Assembly (NCBI GenBank): GCA_036867785.1
Contig: CP145413.1
Location: 1,426,001-1,490,000, forward strand
Length of the DNA stretch: 64,000 bases
Source of the DNA: Plasmodiophora brassicae
Taxonomy: Eukaryota
Reading direction: 5' to 3'
The position numbers and the translations under genes are program-made. The first letter of the stretch is position 1, and every line of letters starts with the position of its first letter. Below are positions 37,253-64,000 of this stretch, one piece after another. The notes below the pieces were generated by a model. The model ran no database searches. It was not told the DNA's origin and was given only the letters and a program-made list of their open reading frames with translations.

Positions 37253-38827
37253 TCATGATGATTGTATTTGGACGTTGGTGGCCCGCAGCGCCTTGTCAAC
37301 GGCCTGGACGAGCCGGGCCGTGTCGATCTTGTAATCGGAGCGGGACCCGCCATCCAGCGCGTTCAGGCAGTGGATGCCGGGCGCCTCCACGACTTCGTCG
37401 CGCGTCACCGTGTAATAGAAATCGTGGATCCATGGGTGCTGCGACCACATGTTGCCGTCCTGGGCGTGCCGATGGCTACGCGGCGGCGACAGGTTCGCGT
37501 CGAGGACGTCGAACATGAGCAGAGCGGCGCCCGGCGGCATGTACATGCCGATATAGCTGGCCCCGCCGGGCGGCGTCACGAACAACGTGCACTGCATCAC
37601 CAGGCTGATCTGCTCCCTCATCGTCATCGTCGAGAAGTCCACGATGCGGACGTCGACGCCGCCCTTGCCCAGGTACCGAGAACGAATCGCGTCGAACGCG
37701 TCCTGTGCGTTCAGGAACGCTCGAGCCTGGCCGCCAACCTTGTGGTTGACGATGATGAGATGGGTGCGCAGGGGCGGGTACGGCCACAGGCCGACGTTCC
37801 TCAGCGAGAACTCGACCCAGTCGGCGATCACCATCGACAGCATCGGGGAGTGCTGAAATTGCCAAGCAGGGCGCCAGTCCCGTCAGACGGGGGACAGACC
37901 AACGGACGGGGGCCGACTCACCAGTATGTGGAAGCCGACCTTCCCGGTGATCAGCTCGCTGAAGCAGATGACGTTGCGGTCAGCGGCGCCCGCCAGGGCT
38001 TGCAACGACGACGGGGCGTGGTTCGTCACCAGCCGGGCGAACTCGGCGTCGCGCTCCGATAGCGGCTTGTTGGTCCTGTGGTCGCCGAACGCGGACAGCA
38101 ACTGGATGTCGGCAGACGGGTCCCTGCCGACCGCCATCTGCATCATGAACGCGGTCATGTACACGTCGCCGATCCGGTGGCCAAAGTTGTTCGCGTGCGT
38201 GAACTGCTGGAGGACGACGCGACGCGGATGGAACGACGCCCAATCGGGTACGGCGCCCTCGACGACGCCTACGTCGTGCATGTCCTCCTCCCACCACTGC
38301 GTCGCGATCAACGGGTACCTCCTCGCATCGTCGTCGTGCGGCGTCAGGACCGCACACGACGACCCGGTCGGTGTGCGGTACCCTGCTGGGCGGGGCCGTT
38401 CTGGGGCAATGGCGCCGAAGGCGTCGTACAGGCGGTCGTCGCTCGGGTGGCTGACGCCCAGCCGGGACATGTTCCCCGATCGCAAGTCGGCGCTGCGGTC
38501 CCAGACCGGCAACGGTATCGATTCGCCGTCCCAGAAGTAGAGGAGGCGGTCAACGTCCAGGTCGTAGCAGACGTTCGACAGCAGGCAGTGCCGCGTGCCT
38601 CGACGCTGACCCTGGTCGCCTTTGCAGATATGCGATGAGTGCAGACGAGCGGGACGGGTCGTTGCTGGCGGATCCGGCCGCGCCTGTCGCTGACCCCGAT
38701 AAGGAACGGGAATAGCCACGTGCAGGTGGTTAACAAGCTGAACGCAGACGATGCCGGCCAGGGCTATCACGAGGACAAACACGCGCAGGGATCGTCGCGT
38801 CTGTACAATGGCGCCCCTGCCTGTCAT
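37253..38827 (-). CDS. GT61-like glycosyltransferase, type II membrane, 2 exons
   Basis: N-terminal TM VFVLVIALAGIVCV; HCLLSNVCYD; NNFGHRIGD; VDFSTMTMREQISLVMQCTLFVTPPGGASYIGMYMPPGA. Intron 37853-37921. Confidence 0.8.
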
Positions 38828-39037
38828 CGGCAGCGCATGGATCGTTGCCCGACGAGACGGCGACAACTGGCAGAGCGATCCGAATGCGCTGGATGCCCTC
38901 AGCTACCAGTCCCGACAGGGCAACCAGCGTCTGCAGACGTCTGCGGCTGTCCCAGAGGCCAGCGATCAGGCGCAGGCCGCGCAGGTACCGTTTATGTTTC
39001 TCGGCAAGGTAGGTACTCGTTCTGGTTGTGGCACCCG

Positions 39038-40099
39038 ATGCTGGCGGCACCCCGGCTGATCGTTATGCTCGTCGTGCTCTGCGCCACGTGCGTCCTGGTT
39101 CTCCTGCTGATGGCGGCCGGGACGGCGCCATACTGGGACGTCATGCCGTCGGTCGGCGGGCGGCTGTTCGAATCGGACCCGCCCCCGTACGAGTACACGT
39201 CGCCGTACTTCCTCTACCTGATCATGGCGCGAGGCGGCCGCCCCGAGTATCTGGACGCCGTCCTGAAGACGAACCGGTCCCGACTCGTCACCCTGAGCTG
39301 GGAGGAGAACGCGCCCACGACGGACGTGTTCATGCCGGAATCGACGATCACAACGGGGCGTATCCGGCTGGGCGAATTCGCGCGCCACCTCGAGCAGGAG
39401 ACCGGGCACCGCTACATGTACTGGATCTGGATGGACGAGGACGCCGTGTTCGGCCCGGAACCCGTCCAGGAATCGATCCGCAACTGGGAGGACTTCCTCC
39501 TCGAATGGCAGCCTGCCGTTGGCGTCAGCGATTACAACCCAAGGCTGCCGGGCGTCATCGAGGCGATGAACGCGGGCGGCAACGCCGACGTGTGGTCCGT
39601 GTTCTCGTTCGATGGGATCTTCAACGCGCAGCACCACGAGACGCTGGCGCACATGACGCCCCTGAACGCGACGTACGACGACGAGTCCTGGCACATGTCG
39701 GCGCTGATCAACCTGTACAAGGCCGGCGCCTACGTCGACCACGTCCTGGAGTTCAGGGGCCTCAAGGTCAGGAACCCGGAGCACAGGTCGCCGGTCGACT
39801 ACCTGAAGAGCAGCGAGGTCTTCCGGCGCGTCGAACCGTTCCTGCCTGGCGATCACCTGCCGCGGCCGCTCGCCGAGTGCGTCGAGGCCAGCGGCCGCCA
39901 TCACTTCGACCTGACCCTGATGATGTGGGGCACGCCCCGCCGCAAGTACTGGTCGTACGACGCGCCCATGTCGCCGGCGACCTGGGCGCGGCGACGACGA
40001 TCCTGGGCGCTGCACAACCGCACCGCCTGCGTTCTGAGCATGCGCGCCCTCGAGGACACGACGCCGTTCTACGTGCACCCGATACCCGACCCGGAATGA
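39038..40099 (+). CDS. Type II membrane protein with DxD motif (putative GT-A fold glycosyltransferase, family unassigned), intronless
   Basis: TM LIVMLVVLCATCVLVLLLMAA; YMYWIWMDEDAVF; WEDFLLEWQPAVG; FDGIFNAQH; DESWH; GC3-rich codon usage. Confidence 0.7.
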   Translation: MLAAPRLIVMLVVLCATCVLVLLLMAAGTAPYWDVMPSVGGRLFESDPPPYEYTSPYFLYLIMARGGRPEYLDAVLKTNRSRLVTLSWEENAPTTDVFMPESTITTGRIRLGEFARHLEQETGHRYMYWIWMDEDAVFGPEPVQESIRNWEDFLLEWQPAVGVSDYNPRLPGVIEAMNAGGNADVWSVFSFDGIFNAQHHETLAHMTPLNATYDDESWHMSALINLYKAGAYVDHVLEFRGLKVRNPEHRSPVDYLKSSEVFRRVEPFLPGDHLPRPLAECVEASGRHHFDLTLMMWGTPRRKYWSYDAPMSPATWARRRRSWALHNRTACVLSMRALEDTTPFYVHPIPDPE

Positions 40100-62190: not shown

Positions 62191-63717
62191 TCAGATCAGG
62201 GAGCCGAGCAGGTCGGCGGTGGCCCAGCAGGACTTCTCGGGCGGTTCTTGGTCGGCGCAGTGCTGCCCCATGTACGTGCTGGTCTCGTACTGGTCCACCG
62301 ACAGGCGCATGGCCCATCGGTCGACAAAGAGCAGGCCGCGTTCGCGAGCGAGGTCCCGTGCGATGCGGTTGAACTCGATGACGCGCACGTCGCTGTTCTG
62401 CATGTTGACCGTGGAGCGCCCTTCCGGCAGTGGCTCGATGCGGGCGATGTGGACCGTGCTCAGCATGATGACGCGGGCCGGAGCCGTCACGTTCACGACG
62501 AAGTCCAGCATGGCGCCATACCGCTGGCGGTACTCGATTACCTTGGCGATCTGGGCCGGGTCCTTCGGGCAGAAGTAGTGCACGTGGTCGTGCAGGCCCG
62601 AGTTCACGATGACGACGTCGGGTTTGCGATCCCCGATGCCACCCATCAGCGTCAGGAACCGGTCGGTGGCCGGCGTCGGCGGGATCATCGTCGTGGACCC
62701 ACCGTAGTTCTCAAAGACATCGATGCCGCCGTCGTAGAAGTGTGTGAGGCGCGTGCGCGGATCGACCACCATCGGGCAGGAGTCGCCGGAGATGGCGCCC
62801 GCCTGCCATTCCGTGTCGAACATCCGGTATTCGTGGTGGCCGCCCGCGTTCCAGGTCCCCCACGGGTGCGGGTACGCGCCCCGGATGTCGCCCACAGTGC
62901 AACCCATGCGTCGCATCATCAGCATGGTCGCCTCGGTCATCGTCGAGTCGCCGACCAGGACGACCCATCGCCCCACGATGTGCTGCGCCATCGAGCGGCG
63001 GTCCCGAACGGGGACGGCCGCCGAGCGGAATCGGAACTCCTCGGACGTGTTCGAACGCCTCCAGGAGTTGTCGCCGGGGAGGTCCACCAGGTCGGGGGCA
63101 TCGCCCGGGATCGTGATGGAGCCAGGGTGAACGGGGAAACGCCCCAGGAACGGCGTGAAGCTGAACACGTCCTCTGCCTTGTGCGACCATTCGTCGGCGC
63201 GCGCGATCGGGACGAAATTCGTCCCGTGGCTGACGAGGTCGACGCGGTAGGTTCCCGGGGGCAACGCGGCAACCTGAACGACGGGCACCGACAGGCTATC
63301 GGGTGTGACCAGCACGGCTCGGCGGTACAATGGCGACGAGATGATCACCGATAGGACCGACCCATAGAGGAACGTCCACGTGCCGTTGTGCCTGCGCTCC
63401 ACCCAGATGTAGGCGACGCGATCGGCGGCCATGCAGGTCCCGATGCGGATGTCCACCGCGTCTCTGGACAGGTTCAGCTCAGGGAAGGCCATGCGCCGCA
63501 GCGACGGCAGGGGCACCAGCAGGTGTCGGTCGGCGACATGCCTTCTGCACGAGTCGTCTTCGCCGACGCCGAGCCGGATCGGGGAGTCGTGTACGATGGC
63601 GCCCGGGACGGATACGCCCAGATTGAGAATGGTCAGCAGGGCGACAACCGTCGCGCCACACACGATCGCAAGACGTATCCTGGAACGCTGCGGCGGCGAG
63701 GACGTGTTGTCGTCCAT
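62191..63717 (-). CDS. SGNH/PC-esterase-like type II membrane protein, paralogue of 44011-45627
   Basis: Shared WxFLYGxV.S..I.SP.YRRA, WVVLVGDST, RMFDTE, PDVVIVNSGLHD, FVDRW, GQHC...PPE..CW. Confidence 0.8.
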   Translation of the reverse strand: MDDNTSSPPQRSRIRLAIVCGATVVALLTILNLGVSVPGAIVHDSPIRLGVGEDDSCRRHVADRHLLVPLPSLRRMAFPELNLSRDAVDIRIGTCMAADRVAYIWVERRHNGTWTFLYGSVLSVIISSPLYRRAVLVTPDSLSVPVVQVAALPPGTYRVDLVSHGTNFVPIARADEWSHKAEDVFSFTPFLGRFPVHPGSITIPGDAPDLVDLPGDNSWRRSNTSEEFRFRSAAVPVRDRRSMAQHIVGRWVVLVGDSTMTEATMLMMRRMGCTVGDIRGAYPHPWGTWNAGGHHEYRMFDTEWQAGAISGDSCPMVVDPRTRLTHFYDGGIDVFENYGGSTTMIPPTPATDRFLTLMGGIGDRKPDVVIVNSGLHDHVHYFCPKDPAQIAKVIEYRQRYGAMLDFVVNVTAPARVIMLSTVHIARIEPLPEGRSTVNMQNSDVRVIEFNRIARDLARERGLLFVDRWAMRLSVDQYETSTYMGQHCADQEPPEKSCWATADLLGSLI

Positions 63718-63861
63718 CGTTGCCCGTTCCCACCAGAGGTGCGGCTGTGCCGATTCCCGGCAGGCCCTGCTGGGCGCGCGTCCCAAGTCAGATACAGCAG
63801 GGGACAGCTGATCAGAGAGGCCACGCCCCGAACCTGACATGGCCGCACGTTCGAATTTATG

Positions 63862-64000
63862 CTAATCAACATTCATAGCGAGGCGCAGCATCAGGTCAAG
63901 GTCCTGGCTGATACAGCTTTGCAGCGTGTCGTACCACTGAGTGCATCGATCCTGCAGGGCGTCCAGCTGGCCGCTGTCGCCCGCCAGCAACGCCTTCATG
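63862..64000 (-). CDS. 3' end of a gene running off the window edge; possibly an exostosin/GT47-like C-terminus
   Basis: Open frame MKALLAGDSGQLDALQDRCTQWYDTLQSCISQDLDLMLRLAMNVD*; the family guess rests only on the LQ...WY helix. Confidence 0.4.
   Translation of the reverse strand, partial: MKALLAGDSGQLDALQDRCTQWYDTLQSCISQDLDLMLRLAMNVD

What the first reader, a model, noticed from the sequence alone, without database searches (positions are those of the whole stretch)
37253..64000. Eukaryotic gene cluster for building an acetylated, methylated, fucosylated glycan
Seen: at least 12 near-consecutive intact genes over ~27 kb, all type II membrane proteins from unrelated families (3 GT61-like, 3 GT77-like, a FucT-like protein, a DxD protein, 1 TBL-type and 2 other SGNH proteins, an FkbM methyltransferase). 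No housekeeping genes lie between them and most are intronless, unlike the intron-rich left half. The cluster runs off the right edge. Known: GT61 (xylosyl/arabinosyl/O-GlcNAc transfer), GT77 (arabinosyl/xylosyl transfer) and TBL (O-acetylation) are Golgi enzymes of plant wall glycans and are normally dispersed in genomes. Inference: a capsule-locus-like, multi-family biosynthetic cluster making one surface or spore-wall glycan, possibly resembling host wall polymers.
Basis: partly seen in the sequence, partly recalled or inferred. Interest (0 to 1): 0.88.

Follow-up and report, generated by a model that had tools for sequence, protein, structure and literature searches.

The report
Clubroot pathogen glycan-enzyme gene cluster
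Twelve neighbouring genes of the clubroot pathogen Plasmodiophora brassicae all look like Golgi enzymes that build or decorate sugar chains, an unusual arrangement for a eukaryote that points to a still unknown surface or spore-wall glycan.

Summary
The window is Plasmodiophora brassicae: its proteins cluster at 90% identity or more with PBRA_0073xx proteins. From 37253 to 63717 there are 12 intact genes. Eleven of the 12 have a strong N-terminal signal-anchor, and 9 of 12 read as a single exon.

Six of the 12 pass curated family cut-offs: GT77 x3, GT61 x2 and PC-esterase x1. Four have only sub-threshold support. These are a 984-aa protein with a GT61-like C-terminal half, a fucosyltransferase-like protein, one SGNH protein and an FkbM-like methyltransferase. 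The second SGNH protein is tied in only by paralogy, and the DxD protein has no family.

Tandem duplication explains only part of the locus: GT77 pairs are 84% and 44-47% identical, the SGNH pair about 36-38%. The GT61-like genes are anciently diverged. At 1-5% glycan-enzyme genes genome-wide, such a run is not expected by chance.

Shared function is inferred, not shown. I found no expression data, no genome-wide count, no relatives' synteny and no shared upstream motif. The "fucosylated, methylated, host-like" reading rests on weak calls. My literature searches found no description of this locus. It is a real and uncommon eukaryotic glycan-enzyme cluster whose product is unknown.

The parts
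37253..38827 (-). g1: GT61-family glycosyltransferase, 501 aa, type II anchor, one 69-nt intron (37853-37921) that holds the in-frame stop
   Evidence: Pfam PF04577 on exon 2: E 1.8e-10, 41.7 bits against cut-off 27. GTGAGT...CAG intron read. Spliced ORF of 501 aa without a stop. TM at residues 10-41.
38837..40099 (+). g2: DxD-containing protein of no known family, possibly GT-A-like. The start is uncertain: the ATG at 38837 gives 420 aa; the ATG at 39038 sits directly before the TM segment.
   Evidence: GC3 0.92. No Pfam or NCBIfam hit even at E<=10. No PDB hit. Atlas look-alikes score 0.94-0.98: unnamed eukaryotic clusters, a DUF5672-named cluster, and a cluster in which 60% of members carry DUF707 (a lead only). 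The 420-aa form is not in the protein collection.
40222..41430 (+). g3: PC-esterase-family protein (putative glycan O-acetyltransferase or esterase), 402 aa; its e3/eH counterpart is PBRA_007309
   Evidence: Pfam PF13839: E 2.8e-7, 31.2 bits against cut-off 27, model positions 3-125 of 284. The ORF is an exact database protein (P0022) and is 401/402 identical to the PBRA_007309 protein P0023. GDS and D-C-L-H motifs visible in the translation.
41492..42019 (-). Fragment copy of the 3' end of g4 (matches the 102-aa PBRA_007310 model); part of a 0.6-kb duplication, 41181-41774 ~ 43639-44296
   Evidence: 90% aa identity over 79 residues to the g4 C-terminus. blastn 92-94%. Named.
44011..45627 (-). 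g4: SGNH/PC-esterase-like type II protein, 538 aa, paralogue of g12
   Evidence: 36% identity over 457 aa to g12, E 1e-80; 38% in alignment A1. GDS block and an H-containing block III. No Pfam hit. The exact protein P0009 is seen only in the window's own assembly.
45700..48800 (.). Lower-GC spacer (GC 0.545 at 46-48 kb) with four successive + strand ORFs of no family; possibly a decayed mobile element (unverified)
   Evidence: Composition. No Pfam hits at E<=0.05 or <=10. No repeat elsewhere in the window.
49124..52282 (+). g5: 984-aa type II protein with a Pro/Thr/Ala-rich stem and two globular halves; the C-terminal half is GT61-like. Its e3 counterpart is PBRA_007322.
   Evidence: Annotated product P0025, which its source names a CAP10-domain protein. 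It maps to 49124-52279. PF04577 reaches only 18.9-21.2 bits against cut-off 27. The 57-nt intron 50756-50812 was read. No PDB hit.
52397..53819 (-). g6: FkbM-like SAM methyltransferase candidate, 363 aa, 6 exons, type II anchor
   Evidence: Gene model with five GT-AG introns of 59-72 nt and no internal stop. TIGR01444 E 0.011, 16.1 bits against cut-off 37.7. No Pfam hit. TM at residues 23-47.
54582..55514 (+). g7: GT77 glycosyltransferase, 310 aa; its e3/eH counterpart is PBRA_007320
   Evidence: PF03407: E 2.4e-33, 116.3 bits against cut-off 22. The ORF is an exact database protein (P0014), in one 90% cluster with PBRA_007320. D-T-D motif invariant in A2.
56672..57604 (+). g8: GT77 glycosyltransferase, 310 aa; its e3/eH counterpart is PBRA_007319; recent tandem copy of g7
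   Evidence: PF03407: E 4.5e-33. 84% aa identity to g7. DNA 54024-55510 ~ 56309-57600 at 87-90%. The ORF is an exact database protein (P0016), in one 90% cluster with PBRA_007319.
57669..58946 (+). g9: GT61 glycosyltransferase, 425 aa; its e3 counterpart is PBRA_007318
   Evidence: PF04577: E 1.1e-9, 39.1 bits against cut-off 27. Solved EOGT chain 9wjk at E 1.3e-5, with the H-G-A-G-L stretch aligned. The ORF is an exact database protein (P0018), in one 90% cluster with PBRA_007318.
59016..59963 (-). g10: GT77 glycosyltransferase, 315 aa, older paralogue of g7/g8
   Evidence: PF03407: E 4.4e-33. 44-47% identity to g8/g7. 305/315 identical to the named P. brassicae protein P0013. Its hydrophobic N-terminal segment is weaker.
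60668..62077 (+). g11: fucosyltransferase-superfamily-like (GT-B) type II protein, 469 aa, with a Gln-rich stem
   Evidence: Pfam XG_FTase 21.1 bits against cut-off 23.4, and FUT8_N_cat E 1e-3. AtFUT1 chains at E 0.08 on the G-x-G-N-R stretch. In the Atlas, every listed look-alike cluster that has a common Pfam family carries O-FucT, FUT8, NodZ or XG_FTase, scores 0.94-0.96. The ORF is an exact database protein (P0020); its cluster has no e3 or eH member.
62191..63717 (-). g12: SGNH/PC-esterase-like type II protein, 508 aa; its e3/eH counterpart is PBRA_007316
   Evidence: Lipase_GDSL_2: E 1.9e-6, 29.0 bits against cut-off 32.9. The ORF is an exact database protein (P0001), in one 90% cluster with PBRA_007316. 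The family is a near-orphan.

Best explanation
This is a genuine physical cluster in Plasmodiophora brassicae. Twelve genes encode signal-anchored, Golgi-type enzymes that build or decorate glycans. They comprise three GT77 and two clear GT61 glycosyltransferases, a two-domain protein whose C-terminal half is GT61-like, a fucosyltransferase-superfamily-like protein, a DxD protein, three PC-esterase/SGNH-type acyl-transfer enzymes, and an FkbM-like methyltransferase.

Shown: the genes, their adjacency, their topology, and the family membership of six of them.

Inferred: the enzymes act in the secretory pathway on one class of the parasite's own glycoconjugate, such as O-glycans of surface or resting-spore-wall glycoproteins, or a wall polysaccharide. 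In this reading the GT61, GT77 and FucT-like enzymes add pentose, hexose or deoxyhexose side residues. The PC-esterase-like and FkbM-like enzymes then O-acetylate and O-methylate them. The locus grew by recruiting unrelated families next to each other, followed by local duplication.
For: - Species identity and intact annotated models in three assemblies.
- 6 of 12 genes are above curated family cut-offs, and 4 more are sub-threshold in the expected families.
- EOGT match for g9.
- For g11, every listed Atlas look-alike cluster that has a common Pfam family carries a fucosyltransferase-clan family.
- g3 carries the GDS and DxxH motifs that PMC2824669 (passages read) gives as defining the PC-esterase family. 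g3, g4 and g12 all have an H-containing block III.
- 11 of 12 have a single N-terminal anchor.
- The families are mutually unrelated. The GT61-like genes are ancient paralogues: g1 against g9 is 29% over 98 aa, and the g5 halves are not significantly similar to either. Tandem duplication alone therefore cannot explain the co-location.
- Chance bound: with 1-5% of about 10^4 genes being glycan enzymes, the expected number of 12-gene runs with >=9 such genes is 2e-12 to 4e-6. For 7 independent families side by side it is 1e-8 to 1.6e-4. Rolfe 2016 gives 113 CAZy-class genes among 10,851, about 1%.
- The same genes carry consecutive locus tags PBRA_007316-007322 in isolate e3, and consecutive accession numbers in eH.
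Against: - No direct evidence of co-expression or of a product.
- No upstream k-mer is shared beyond chance: best p 3e-4 among 1355 hexamers tested, in 10 independent upstream groups (low power).
- The 27 kb holds no nucleotide-sugar synthesis gene, transporter or exporter.
- 6 of 12 family calls fail curated cut-offs, and both structure models were unusable.
- The neighbourhood is a duplication hot-spot for other membrane-protein genes. A six-copy multi-TM family lies at 5-37 kb, with segmental duplications. Co-location could therefore be partly neutral.
- GT61-type and GT77-type annotations also occur on three different eH scaffolds (s003, s011, s033; table in PMC7415369). At least two of those genes lie outside this locus, so the families are not confined to it.
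Confidence: 0.55

Rival explanations
1. The cluster is physically real but not a pathway. This chromosome region is a birth-and-duplication hot-spot for lineage-specific secretory and membrane protein genes, and the enzymes serve different glycans.
For: - Six paralogues of an unrelated multi-TM family (54-89% identity) lie immediately to the left.
- There are 87-94% identical segmental duplications at 30.2-32.0/35.2-37.0 kb, 41.2-41.8/43.6-44.3 kb and 54.0-55.5/56.3-57.6 kb.
- Gene order differs between assemblies.
- No shared promoter word was found.
- The genome is compact everywhere, with intergenic distances mostly under 800 bp (PMC4815078), so tight spacing is not special.
Against: Duplication cannot bring together 6-7 unrelated enzyme families that all share one topology and one kind of substrate. 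The chance bounds are very small. All 12 recognisable genes in the 27 kb belong to the glycan-enzyme category, and none belongs to any other.
Confidence: 0.3
2. The block was acquired by horizontal transfer from a plant or alga, a giant virus or a bacterium. It makes a foreign-type glycan.
For: GT61, GT77, PC-esterase and GT37-like families are best known from plants. The only non-self GT77 hit was a plant XEG113-like protein. Some Atlas look-alikes of g2 and g11 are viral clusters (that tool warns this is no sign of transfer).
Against: - The XEG113-like hit is only 24% identical.
- The SGNH pair has only 5 remote relatives among 1.84 billion representatives.
- Cluster GC3 is 0.83-0.94, and codon frequencies correlate with the left-half genes at r = 0.93.
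- The introns are of the host type: 57-72 nt, GT-AG, with a CTGAC-like or TTGAC-like word in 6 of the 7 examined.
- No related locus was found in viral contigs.
Confidence: 0.05
3. The proteins are released effectors that modify host glycans or metabolites inside the infected plant cell, rather than the parasite's own surface.
For: The parasite lives inside host cytoplasm, and the families match plant wall chemistry. The P. brassicae papers I read discuss secreted CAZyme-type effector candidates (PMC4471660 passages).
Against: All have uncleaved-looking signal-anchors followed by stem regions, the architecture of resident Golgi enzymes. This is reading and inference only; nothing was tested.
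Confidence: 0.07

Closest known systems
Galactosaminogalactan (GAG) five-gene cluster of Aspergillus and Metarhizium (PMC8224951, abstract seen in the listing)
   Same: A eukaryote keeps unrelated enzymes for one extracellular glycan side by side, giving a capsule-locus-like logic in a pathogen.
   Different: That cluster has five genes of other families, and its product and role have been characterised. Here there are 12 genes of GT61, GT77, FucT-like, PC-esterase-like and FkbM-like types in a rhizarian. The product and co-regulation are unknown, and there is no synthase-type polymerase except possibly the two-domain g5.
Bacterial capsule and O-antigen loci (e.g. the Bacteroides fragilis polysaccharide loci, PMC3090145, abstract seen in the listing)
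   Same: Several glycosyltransferase families sit next to acetyl- and methyl-transferases in one locus.
   Different: There is no Wzx/Wzy or ABC exporter and no sugar-nucleotide genes. The genes here are monocistronic eukaryotic genes on both strands with spliceosomal introns and Golgi-type signal-anchors.
Plant wall and extensin enzymes: XEG113/RRA/RGXT (GT77), XAT/XylT and animal EOGT (GT61), TBL/XOAT (PC-esterase), FUT1 (GT37). Activities are recalled from general knowledge.
   Same: The same Pfam families and the same type II topology.
   Different: Very distant: 24% identity to XEG113-like, and g9 matches EOGT only over about 100 residues. g3 lacks the PMR5N domain and matches only the first 125 of 284 PC-esterase model positions. 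In plants these genes are not known to form mixed clusters (recalled).
PC-esterase family as defined by Anantharaman and Aravind 2010 (PMC2824669, passages read)
   Same: g3 has GDS and DxxH. g3, g4 and g12 have an H where canonical SGNH enzymes have the block-III N. Lineage-specific expansion matches the pattern that paper describes.
   Different: g4 and g12 have a long unique N-terminal domain and no Asp three residues before the C-terminal His. No Cas1p-type 10-TM acyltransferase partner was recognised in the window.

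Membership tests
GT77 (Pfam PF03407 Nucleotid_trans) | Profile score above the curated cut-off | tested here: met
   g7 116.3, g8 115.4 and g10 115.5 bits against cut-off 22.
GT77 (Pfam PF03407 Nucleotid_trans) | DxD metal/nucleotide-sugar motif of GT-A enzymes (motif recalled) | tested here: met
   D168-T169-D170 is invariant in the three-sequence alignment A2.
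GT77 (Pfam PF03407 Nucleotid_trans) | Donor and acceptor specificity (arabinosyl, xylosyl or galactosyl transfer) | not testable with these tools
   The only non-self hit is a plant XEG113-like protein at 24% identity, E 1.9e-8. That is too distant to transfer a specificity.
GT61 (Pfam PF04577) | Profile score above the curated cut-off | tested here: met
   g1 41.7 bits and g9 39.1 bits against cut-off 27. g9 also matches the solved EOGT chain 9wjk at E 1.3e-5.
GT61 (Pfam PF04577), applied to g5 | Profile score above the curated cut-off | tested here: not met
   The C-terminal half scores 21.2 bits (ORF) and 18.9 bits (P0025) against cut-off 27. The N-terminal half has no hit. There is no PDB hit, and phmmer against g9 gives E 0.012-0.39 in a 4-sequence database. 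g5 is GT61-like at most.
PC-esterase (Pfam PF13839; definition in PMC2824669) | Profile score above the cut-off, plus GDS and DxxH catalytic motifs | tested here: met
   g3 scores 31.2 bits against cut-off 27. GDS and D-C-L-H are visible in its translation. Only model positions 3-125 of 284 align.
Plant TBL proteins (PMR5N + PC-esterase; architecture recalled) | Cys-rich PMR5N domain ahead of the PC-esterase domain | tested here: not met
   No PMR5N hit for g3, g4 or g12 at E<=10 or <=0.01. g3 is a PC-esterase but not a plant-type TBL.
SGNH/PC-esterase, applied to g4 and g12 | Profile score above the cut-off; catalytic Ser (GDS), block III, C-terminal DxxH | tested here: inconclusive
   g12 scores 29.0 bits on Lipase_GDSL_2 against cut-off 32.9, and g4 has no hit. 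GDS and an H-containing block III are present and a C-terminal His is conserved, but no Asp sits three residues before it. hhalign against g3 aligns only the block III region, E 0.064. Remote relatives lean towards NXPE4_C, PC-esterase or GDSL at weak E-values.
Fucosyltransferase superfamily (GT37 XG_FTase, FUT8, NodZ, O-FucT) | Profile score above the cut-off, or a fold match | tested here: inconclusive
   For g11, XG_FTase scores 21.1 bits against cut-off 23.4 and FUT8_N_cat gives E 1e-3. AtFUT1 chains score E 0.08 over 45 residues. Atlas look-alikes score 0.94-0.96, and every cluster with a common Pfam family carries one from this clan (leads only). The AF2 model has pLDDT 37 and is unusable. 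The sugar donor was not tested.
FkbM-family methyltransferase (TIGR01444 / Pfam Methyltransf_21) | Profile score above the cut-off | tested here: not met
   For g6, TIGR01444 scores 16.1 bits against cut-off 37.7 (E 0.011) on one exon-bearing ORF. There is no Pfam hit. The gene is split over 6 exons and the tools take only contiguous DNA, so the whole protein could not be scanned. Motifs resembling the family (recalled) occur in order at residues 121, 146 and 262.
Eukaryotic biosynthetic gene cluster for a glycan (as in the GAG cluster) | Adjacent genes of unrelated enzyme families | tested here: met
   12 of 12 recognisable genes in 26.5 kb, in 6-7 families.
Eukaryotic biosynthetic gene cluster for a glycan (as in the GAG cluster) | Co-expression and a common product | not testable with these tools
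   No expression data could be reached (supplements closed). No paper names these locus tags. No shared upstream word was found.
Eukaryotic biosynthetic gene cluster for a glycan (as in the GAG cluster) | Conservation of the cluster in related genomes | tested here: inconclusive
   The genes are also neighbours in isolates e3 and eH, judged by locus-tag and accession order. That is the same species. No other species could be examined.

The most novel reading that the evidence does not exclude
The locus is a co-regulated, capsule-locus-like biosynthetic cluster of a protist. In this reading the 984-aa protein g5, with its two glycosyltransferase-like halves, polymerises or primes a backbone. 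The GT61, GT77 and FucT-like enzymes add pentose and deoxyhexose side chains. The PC-esterase-like and FkbM-like enzymes then acetylate and methylate them. The result would be a Plasmodiophora-specific wall or coat glycan with plant-wall-like chemistry on the resting spore or the intracellular plasmodium, possibly shaping how the host perceives the parasite.
Probability: 0.2. Interest if true: 0.85.

Novelty: new variant of a known kind. Interest (0 to 1): 0.62.

Why it matters
Multi-family gene clusters for glycan synthesis are routine in bacteria but rare in eukaryotes, the fungal GAG cluster being the textbook case. A 12-gene example in a rhizarian would widen that picture. It would also show how such clusters arise, by recruitment of unrelated families plus local duplication.

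For clubroot, little beyond chitin is known about the carbohydrates of the resting-spore wall and the plasmodial surface. This locus gives a concrete, testable candidate list for a non-chitin surface glycan. It could also yield markers, because g11 is not annotated in isolates e3 or eH and gene order differs between assemblies.

Tried and rejected
- **Whole genome:** none is held, so there is no genome-wide family count or permutation test. Only bounds were computed.
- **Word-based homologue searches:** these returned nothing for g4, only g10's own protein, and for the GT77 profile only the three own proteins plus one plant protein. No phylogeny was possible.
- **Related loci:** none in viral contigs or metagenome contigs, so there is no synteny from other organisms.
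- **AlphaFold2 without an alignment:** for the g11 catalytic part and for g2, mean pLDDT was 37.1 and 39.4. The models are unusable, so no fold search was run.
- **PDB sequence searches:** no meaningful match for g2, g3, g5, the g6 exon ORF, the SGNH profile or the GT77 profile.
- **Shared upstream words:** nothing survives multiple testing.
- **Left-half multi-TM family as the missing Cas1p/RWA-type acetyl donor:** no acyltransferase or any other family hit. The idea was dropped.
- **46.4-48.5 kb as a Tnp2/CACTA-type transposase relic:** this rests only on a recalled motif, with no Pfam support at E<=10. It is unverified.
- **RNA genes:** no tRNA and no Rfam family in the window.
They may well hold the family counts and expression values needed here.
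- **Earlier findings of this scan:** nothing for this genome, these words or this sequence.

Full report
**What the window is.** The 64-kb window has about 62% G+C and no N. Uninterrupted ORFs from it are letter for letter proteins of the public collection. Their 90%-identity clusters contain named Plasmodiophora brassicae proteins: PBRA_007305, 007309, 007310, 007316, 007318, 007319, 007320 and 007322, plus eH-isolate accessions. The window's proteins are 96.8-99.8% identical to those e3, eH or Logan-assembly versions. This covers 8 full-length pairs in the cluster; the flanking CapA-like gene is 97.7% identical. The window is therefore P. brassicae, from an assembly other than e3 or eH. No whole genome is held for it.

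**Checking the observation.** I translated all stop-to-stop ORFs. I scanned the 94 of 200 aa or more (whole window) and 100 shorter ones in the four gaps of the right half against Pfam. I then worked out gene models from third-position G+C, splice sites and annotated proteins.

Two apparent in-frame stops are intronic:
- g1: a 69-nt GTGAGT...CAG intron.
- g5: a 57-nt GTACTT...CAG intron. The annotated 984-aa product P0025 confirms this join.

The FkbM-like gene g6 assembles into six exons with five GT-AG introns of 59-72 nt, giving 363 aa without a stop. Nine of the 12 genes read as one exon. For seven of them (g3, g4, g7, g8, g9, g11, g12) the ORF translation is an exact database protein. g10 aligns without gaps to a 315-aa named protein. 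g2's start is unsettled. Eleven of the 12 have one strong N-terminal hydrophobic segment; g10's is weaker.

**Family calls.**
- Above curated cut-offs, 6 of 12: GT77 for g7, g8 and g10 (115-116 bits against 22); GT61 for g1 and g9 (41.7 and 39.1 against 27); PC-esterase for g3 (31.2 against 27). g9 also matches the solved EOGT structure at E 1.3e-5. The three GT77s share an invariant D-T-D. g3 shows GDS and D-C-L-H, the motifs that define the family in PMC2824669 (passages read).
- Sub-threshold, 4 of 12: the g5 C-terminal half (GT61, 18.9-21.2 against 27); g11 (XG_FTase, 21.1 against 23.4, plus FUT8_N_cat); g12 (Lipase_GDSL_2, 29.0 against 32.9); g6 (TIGR01444, 16.1 against 37.7).
- g11 gains some support. 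It matches AtFUT1 chains at E 0.08 on a G-x-G-N-R stretch. Every listed Atlas look-alike cluster that has a common Pfam family carries O-FucT, FUT8, NodZ or XG_FTase, with scores of 0.94-0.96. These are leads, not tests.
- g4 has no hit but is a clear paralogue of g12 (E 1e-80; 38% in A1).
- g2 has no family in Pfam, NCBIfam or PDB. Its only support is Atlas look-alikes: unnamed eukaryotic clusters, a DUF5672-named cluster, and a cluster in which 60% of members carry DUF707.
- The g4/g12 family is nearly an orphan. A profile search of 1.84 billion representatives gave 7 proteins at E <= 1e-3. Two of them belong to this locus. The other five are remote (1.7e-6 to 7.6e-4) and carry weak NXPE4_C, PC-esterase or GDSL signals.

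**How the locus is built.**
- Recent duplication: g7/g8 are 84% identical in protein, and their DNA including upstream sequence is 87-90% identical.
- Older duplication: g10 against g7/g8 is 44-47% identical; g4 against g12 is 36-38%.
- Ancient or no relationship: g1 against g9 is 29% over 98 residues. The g5 halves are not significantly similar to either or to each other. g3 aligns with g4/g12 only at block III (E 0.064).
- A 0.6-kb duplication (41181-41774 ~ 43639-44296, 92-94%) copied the convergent 3' ends of g3 and g4 and left a 102-aa gene fragment, the PBRA_007310 model.

Spacing is tight: 64-122 nt between some neighbours, from the ORF ends. That is normal for this genome (PMC4815078 passages).

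**Is it more than chance?** I could not count the families genome-wide. Rolfe et al. report 113 CAZy-class genes among 10,851 predicted genes (PMC4815078, passages), about 1%. With 1%, 3% or 5% of genes in the category, the expected number of 12-gene runs with 9 or more members in about 10^4 positions is 2e-12, 4e-8 or 4e-6. Counting only 7 independent families side by side gives 1e-8 to 1.6e-4. So the clustering is real unless these families are vastly more abundant than reported.

Against exclusivity: a table in PMC7415369 lists GT61-type annotations (EC 2.4.2.38) and an RGXT-like (GT77-type) annotation on three different eH scaffolds. At least two such genes therefore lie elsewhere.

**Surroundings.** The left half holds ordinary regulatory genes: FYVE, RhoGEF and PH-kinase exons. 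It also holds six paralogues of a multi-TM family with no Pfam match (54-89% identity), a CapA/PGA_cap-like gene (E 2.8e-38), and a 571-aa protein with hydrophobic N- and C-terminal segments whose partial copy sits inside the cluster at 42919-43450. The region is thus rich in duplicated, lineage-specific membrane-protein genes, which feeds the main rival explanation.

In e3 and eH, locus-tag and accession order runs fragment (007310), five further genes (007311-007315), then g12, g10, g9, g8, g7, one unmatched number (007321, which fits g6's position), and g5. So the block g5-g12 is inverted there relative to the window (inferred only). Those five genes should lie beyond the right edge here. 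g11's cluster has no e3 or eH member, and full-length g4 is seen only in the window's assembly.

**Mechanism.**
- Shown: a dense run of signal-anchored enzymes of glycan-building and glycan-decorating families.
- Inferred from family knowledge (recalled): GT77 enzymes add arabinofuranose, xylose or galactose. GT61 enzymes add xylose, arabinose or GlcNAc. PC-esterase/TBL-type enzymes transfer or remove O-acetyl groups. FkbM-type enzymes O-methylate sugars. The FucT superfamily adds fucose or, in some branches, other sugars.

The most economical reading is that these enzymes act together in the Golgi on one class of the parasite's own glycoconjugates. I give this 0.55. The non-functional hot-spot rival gets 0.3, horizontal transfer 0.05, and released host-modifying enzymes 0.07.

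Evidence against transfer: GC3 is 0.83-0.94 and codon-frequency correlation with the left-half genes is r = 0.93. The introns are of the organism's own type, and 6 of the 7 examined carry a CTGAC/TTGAC word near the 3' end. Identity to outside proteins is very low.

**Comparison and novelty.** The closest known kind is a eukaryotic glycan biosynthetic cluster such as the five-gene GAG cluster (PMC8224951, abstract). Bacterial polysaccharide loci are analogous in logic but differ in machinery. The locus was not found in print in any of these:
- searches for P. brassicae with GT77 or glycosyltransferase;
- searches with CAZymes or GT61;
- searches for the locus tags PBRA_00729x to 00732x;
- searches with gene cluster, acetyltransferase or fucosyltransferase;
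- a general search for protist glycosyltransferase clusters;
- a search for spore-surface sugars.

The two genome papers do not use the word glycosyltransferase in their main texts (passages only). Their supplements could not be opened and may list these genes.

**Limits.** Both structure predictions failed for lack of alignments. Spliced proteins could not be passed to the family or fold tools. Nothing is known here about expression.

Noticed in passing
window 5263-8107(-), 25166-28628(+), 30220-32031(+), 35108-37057(+): Six paralogues (54-89% identical; the last two are 89% identical in protein, 91.5% in DNA) of a protein with a signal-peptide-like start, a Cys-containing N-terminal domain and many hydrophobic helices. 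No Pfam family even at E<=10. They flank the glycan cluster on its left.
   Followed up: partly
window 28759-30063(+): A CapA/PGA_cap-like gene (Pfam E 2.8e-38; its e3/eH counterpart is PBRA_007305), a family known from bacterial capsule synthesis. It sits between the multi-TM paralogues.
   Followed up: no
window 4325-5137(-): An exon-sized ORF with EamA (E 5.9e-12) and weak TPT (E 1.8e-4) matches, i.e. a drug/metabolite or nucleotide-sugar-transporter-like protein. It lies about 32 kb from the cluster; no link is shown.
   Followed up: no
window 22272-23611 and 23951-24696: Two long imperfect palindromes, each matching its own reverse complement at 70-72% over 1.3 kb and 0.75 kb. No gene family was found there.
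   Followed up: no
window 41181-48800, and the order of g5-g12: Locus-tag and accession order in isolates e3 and eH implies that the block g5..g12 is inverted there relative to this assembly, with five more genes (PBRA_007311-15) between the g4 fragment and g12. The breakpoint region here holds the 0.6-kb duplication and the low-GC spacer. This is inferred from numbering only.
   Followed up: partly
window 60668-62077 (g11) and 44011-45627 (g4): The 90% cluster of g11 has no e3 or eH member, only the window's own protein and a 329-aa Logan model. Full-length g4 is seen only in this assembly, while e3 and eH carry a 102-aa fragment model. These are possible annotation gaps or isolate differences.
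   Followed up: partly
window 33013-34725(+) and 42919-43450(-): A 571-aa protein with a hydrophobic N-terminus and a C-terminal hydrophobic segment has a 72% identical partial DNA copy inside the cluster (55% identity over 107 aa).
   Followed up: no
window 37853-37921, 50756-50812, 52593-53442: The short introns (57-72 nt) are often a multiple of three and stay in frame, so genes look like ORFs broken by a single stop. Six of the 7 examined carry a CTGAC- or TTGAC-like word near the 3' end, a possible branch-point signal.
   Followed up: partly
window 46468-48467(+): Four successive ORFs in shifting frames lie in the lowest-GC part of the right half. One stretch recalled the N-terminal region of Tnp2/CACTA-type transposases, but no profile supports this.
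   Followed up: partly
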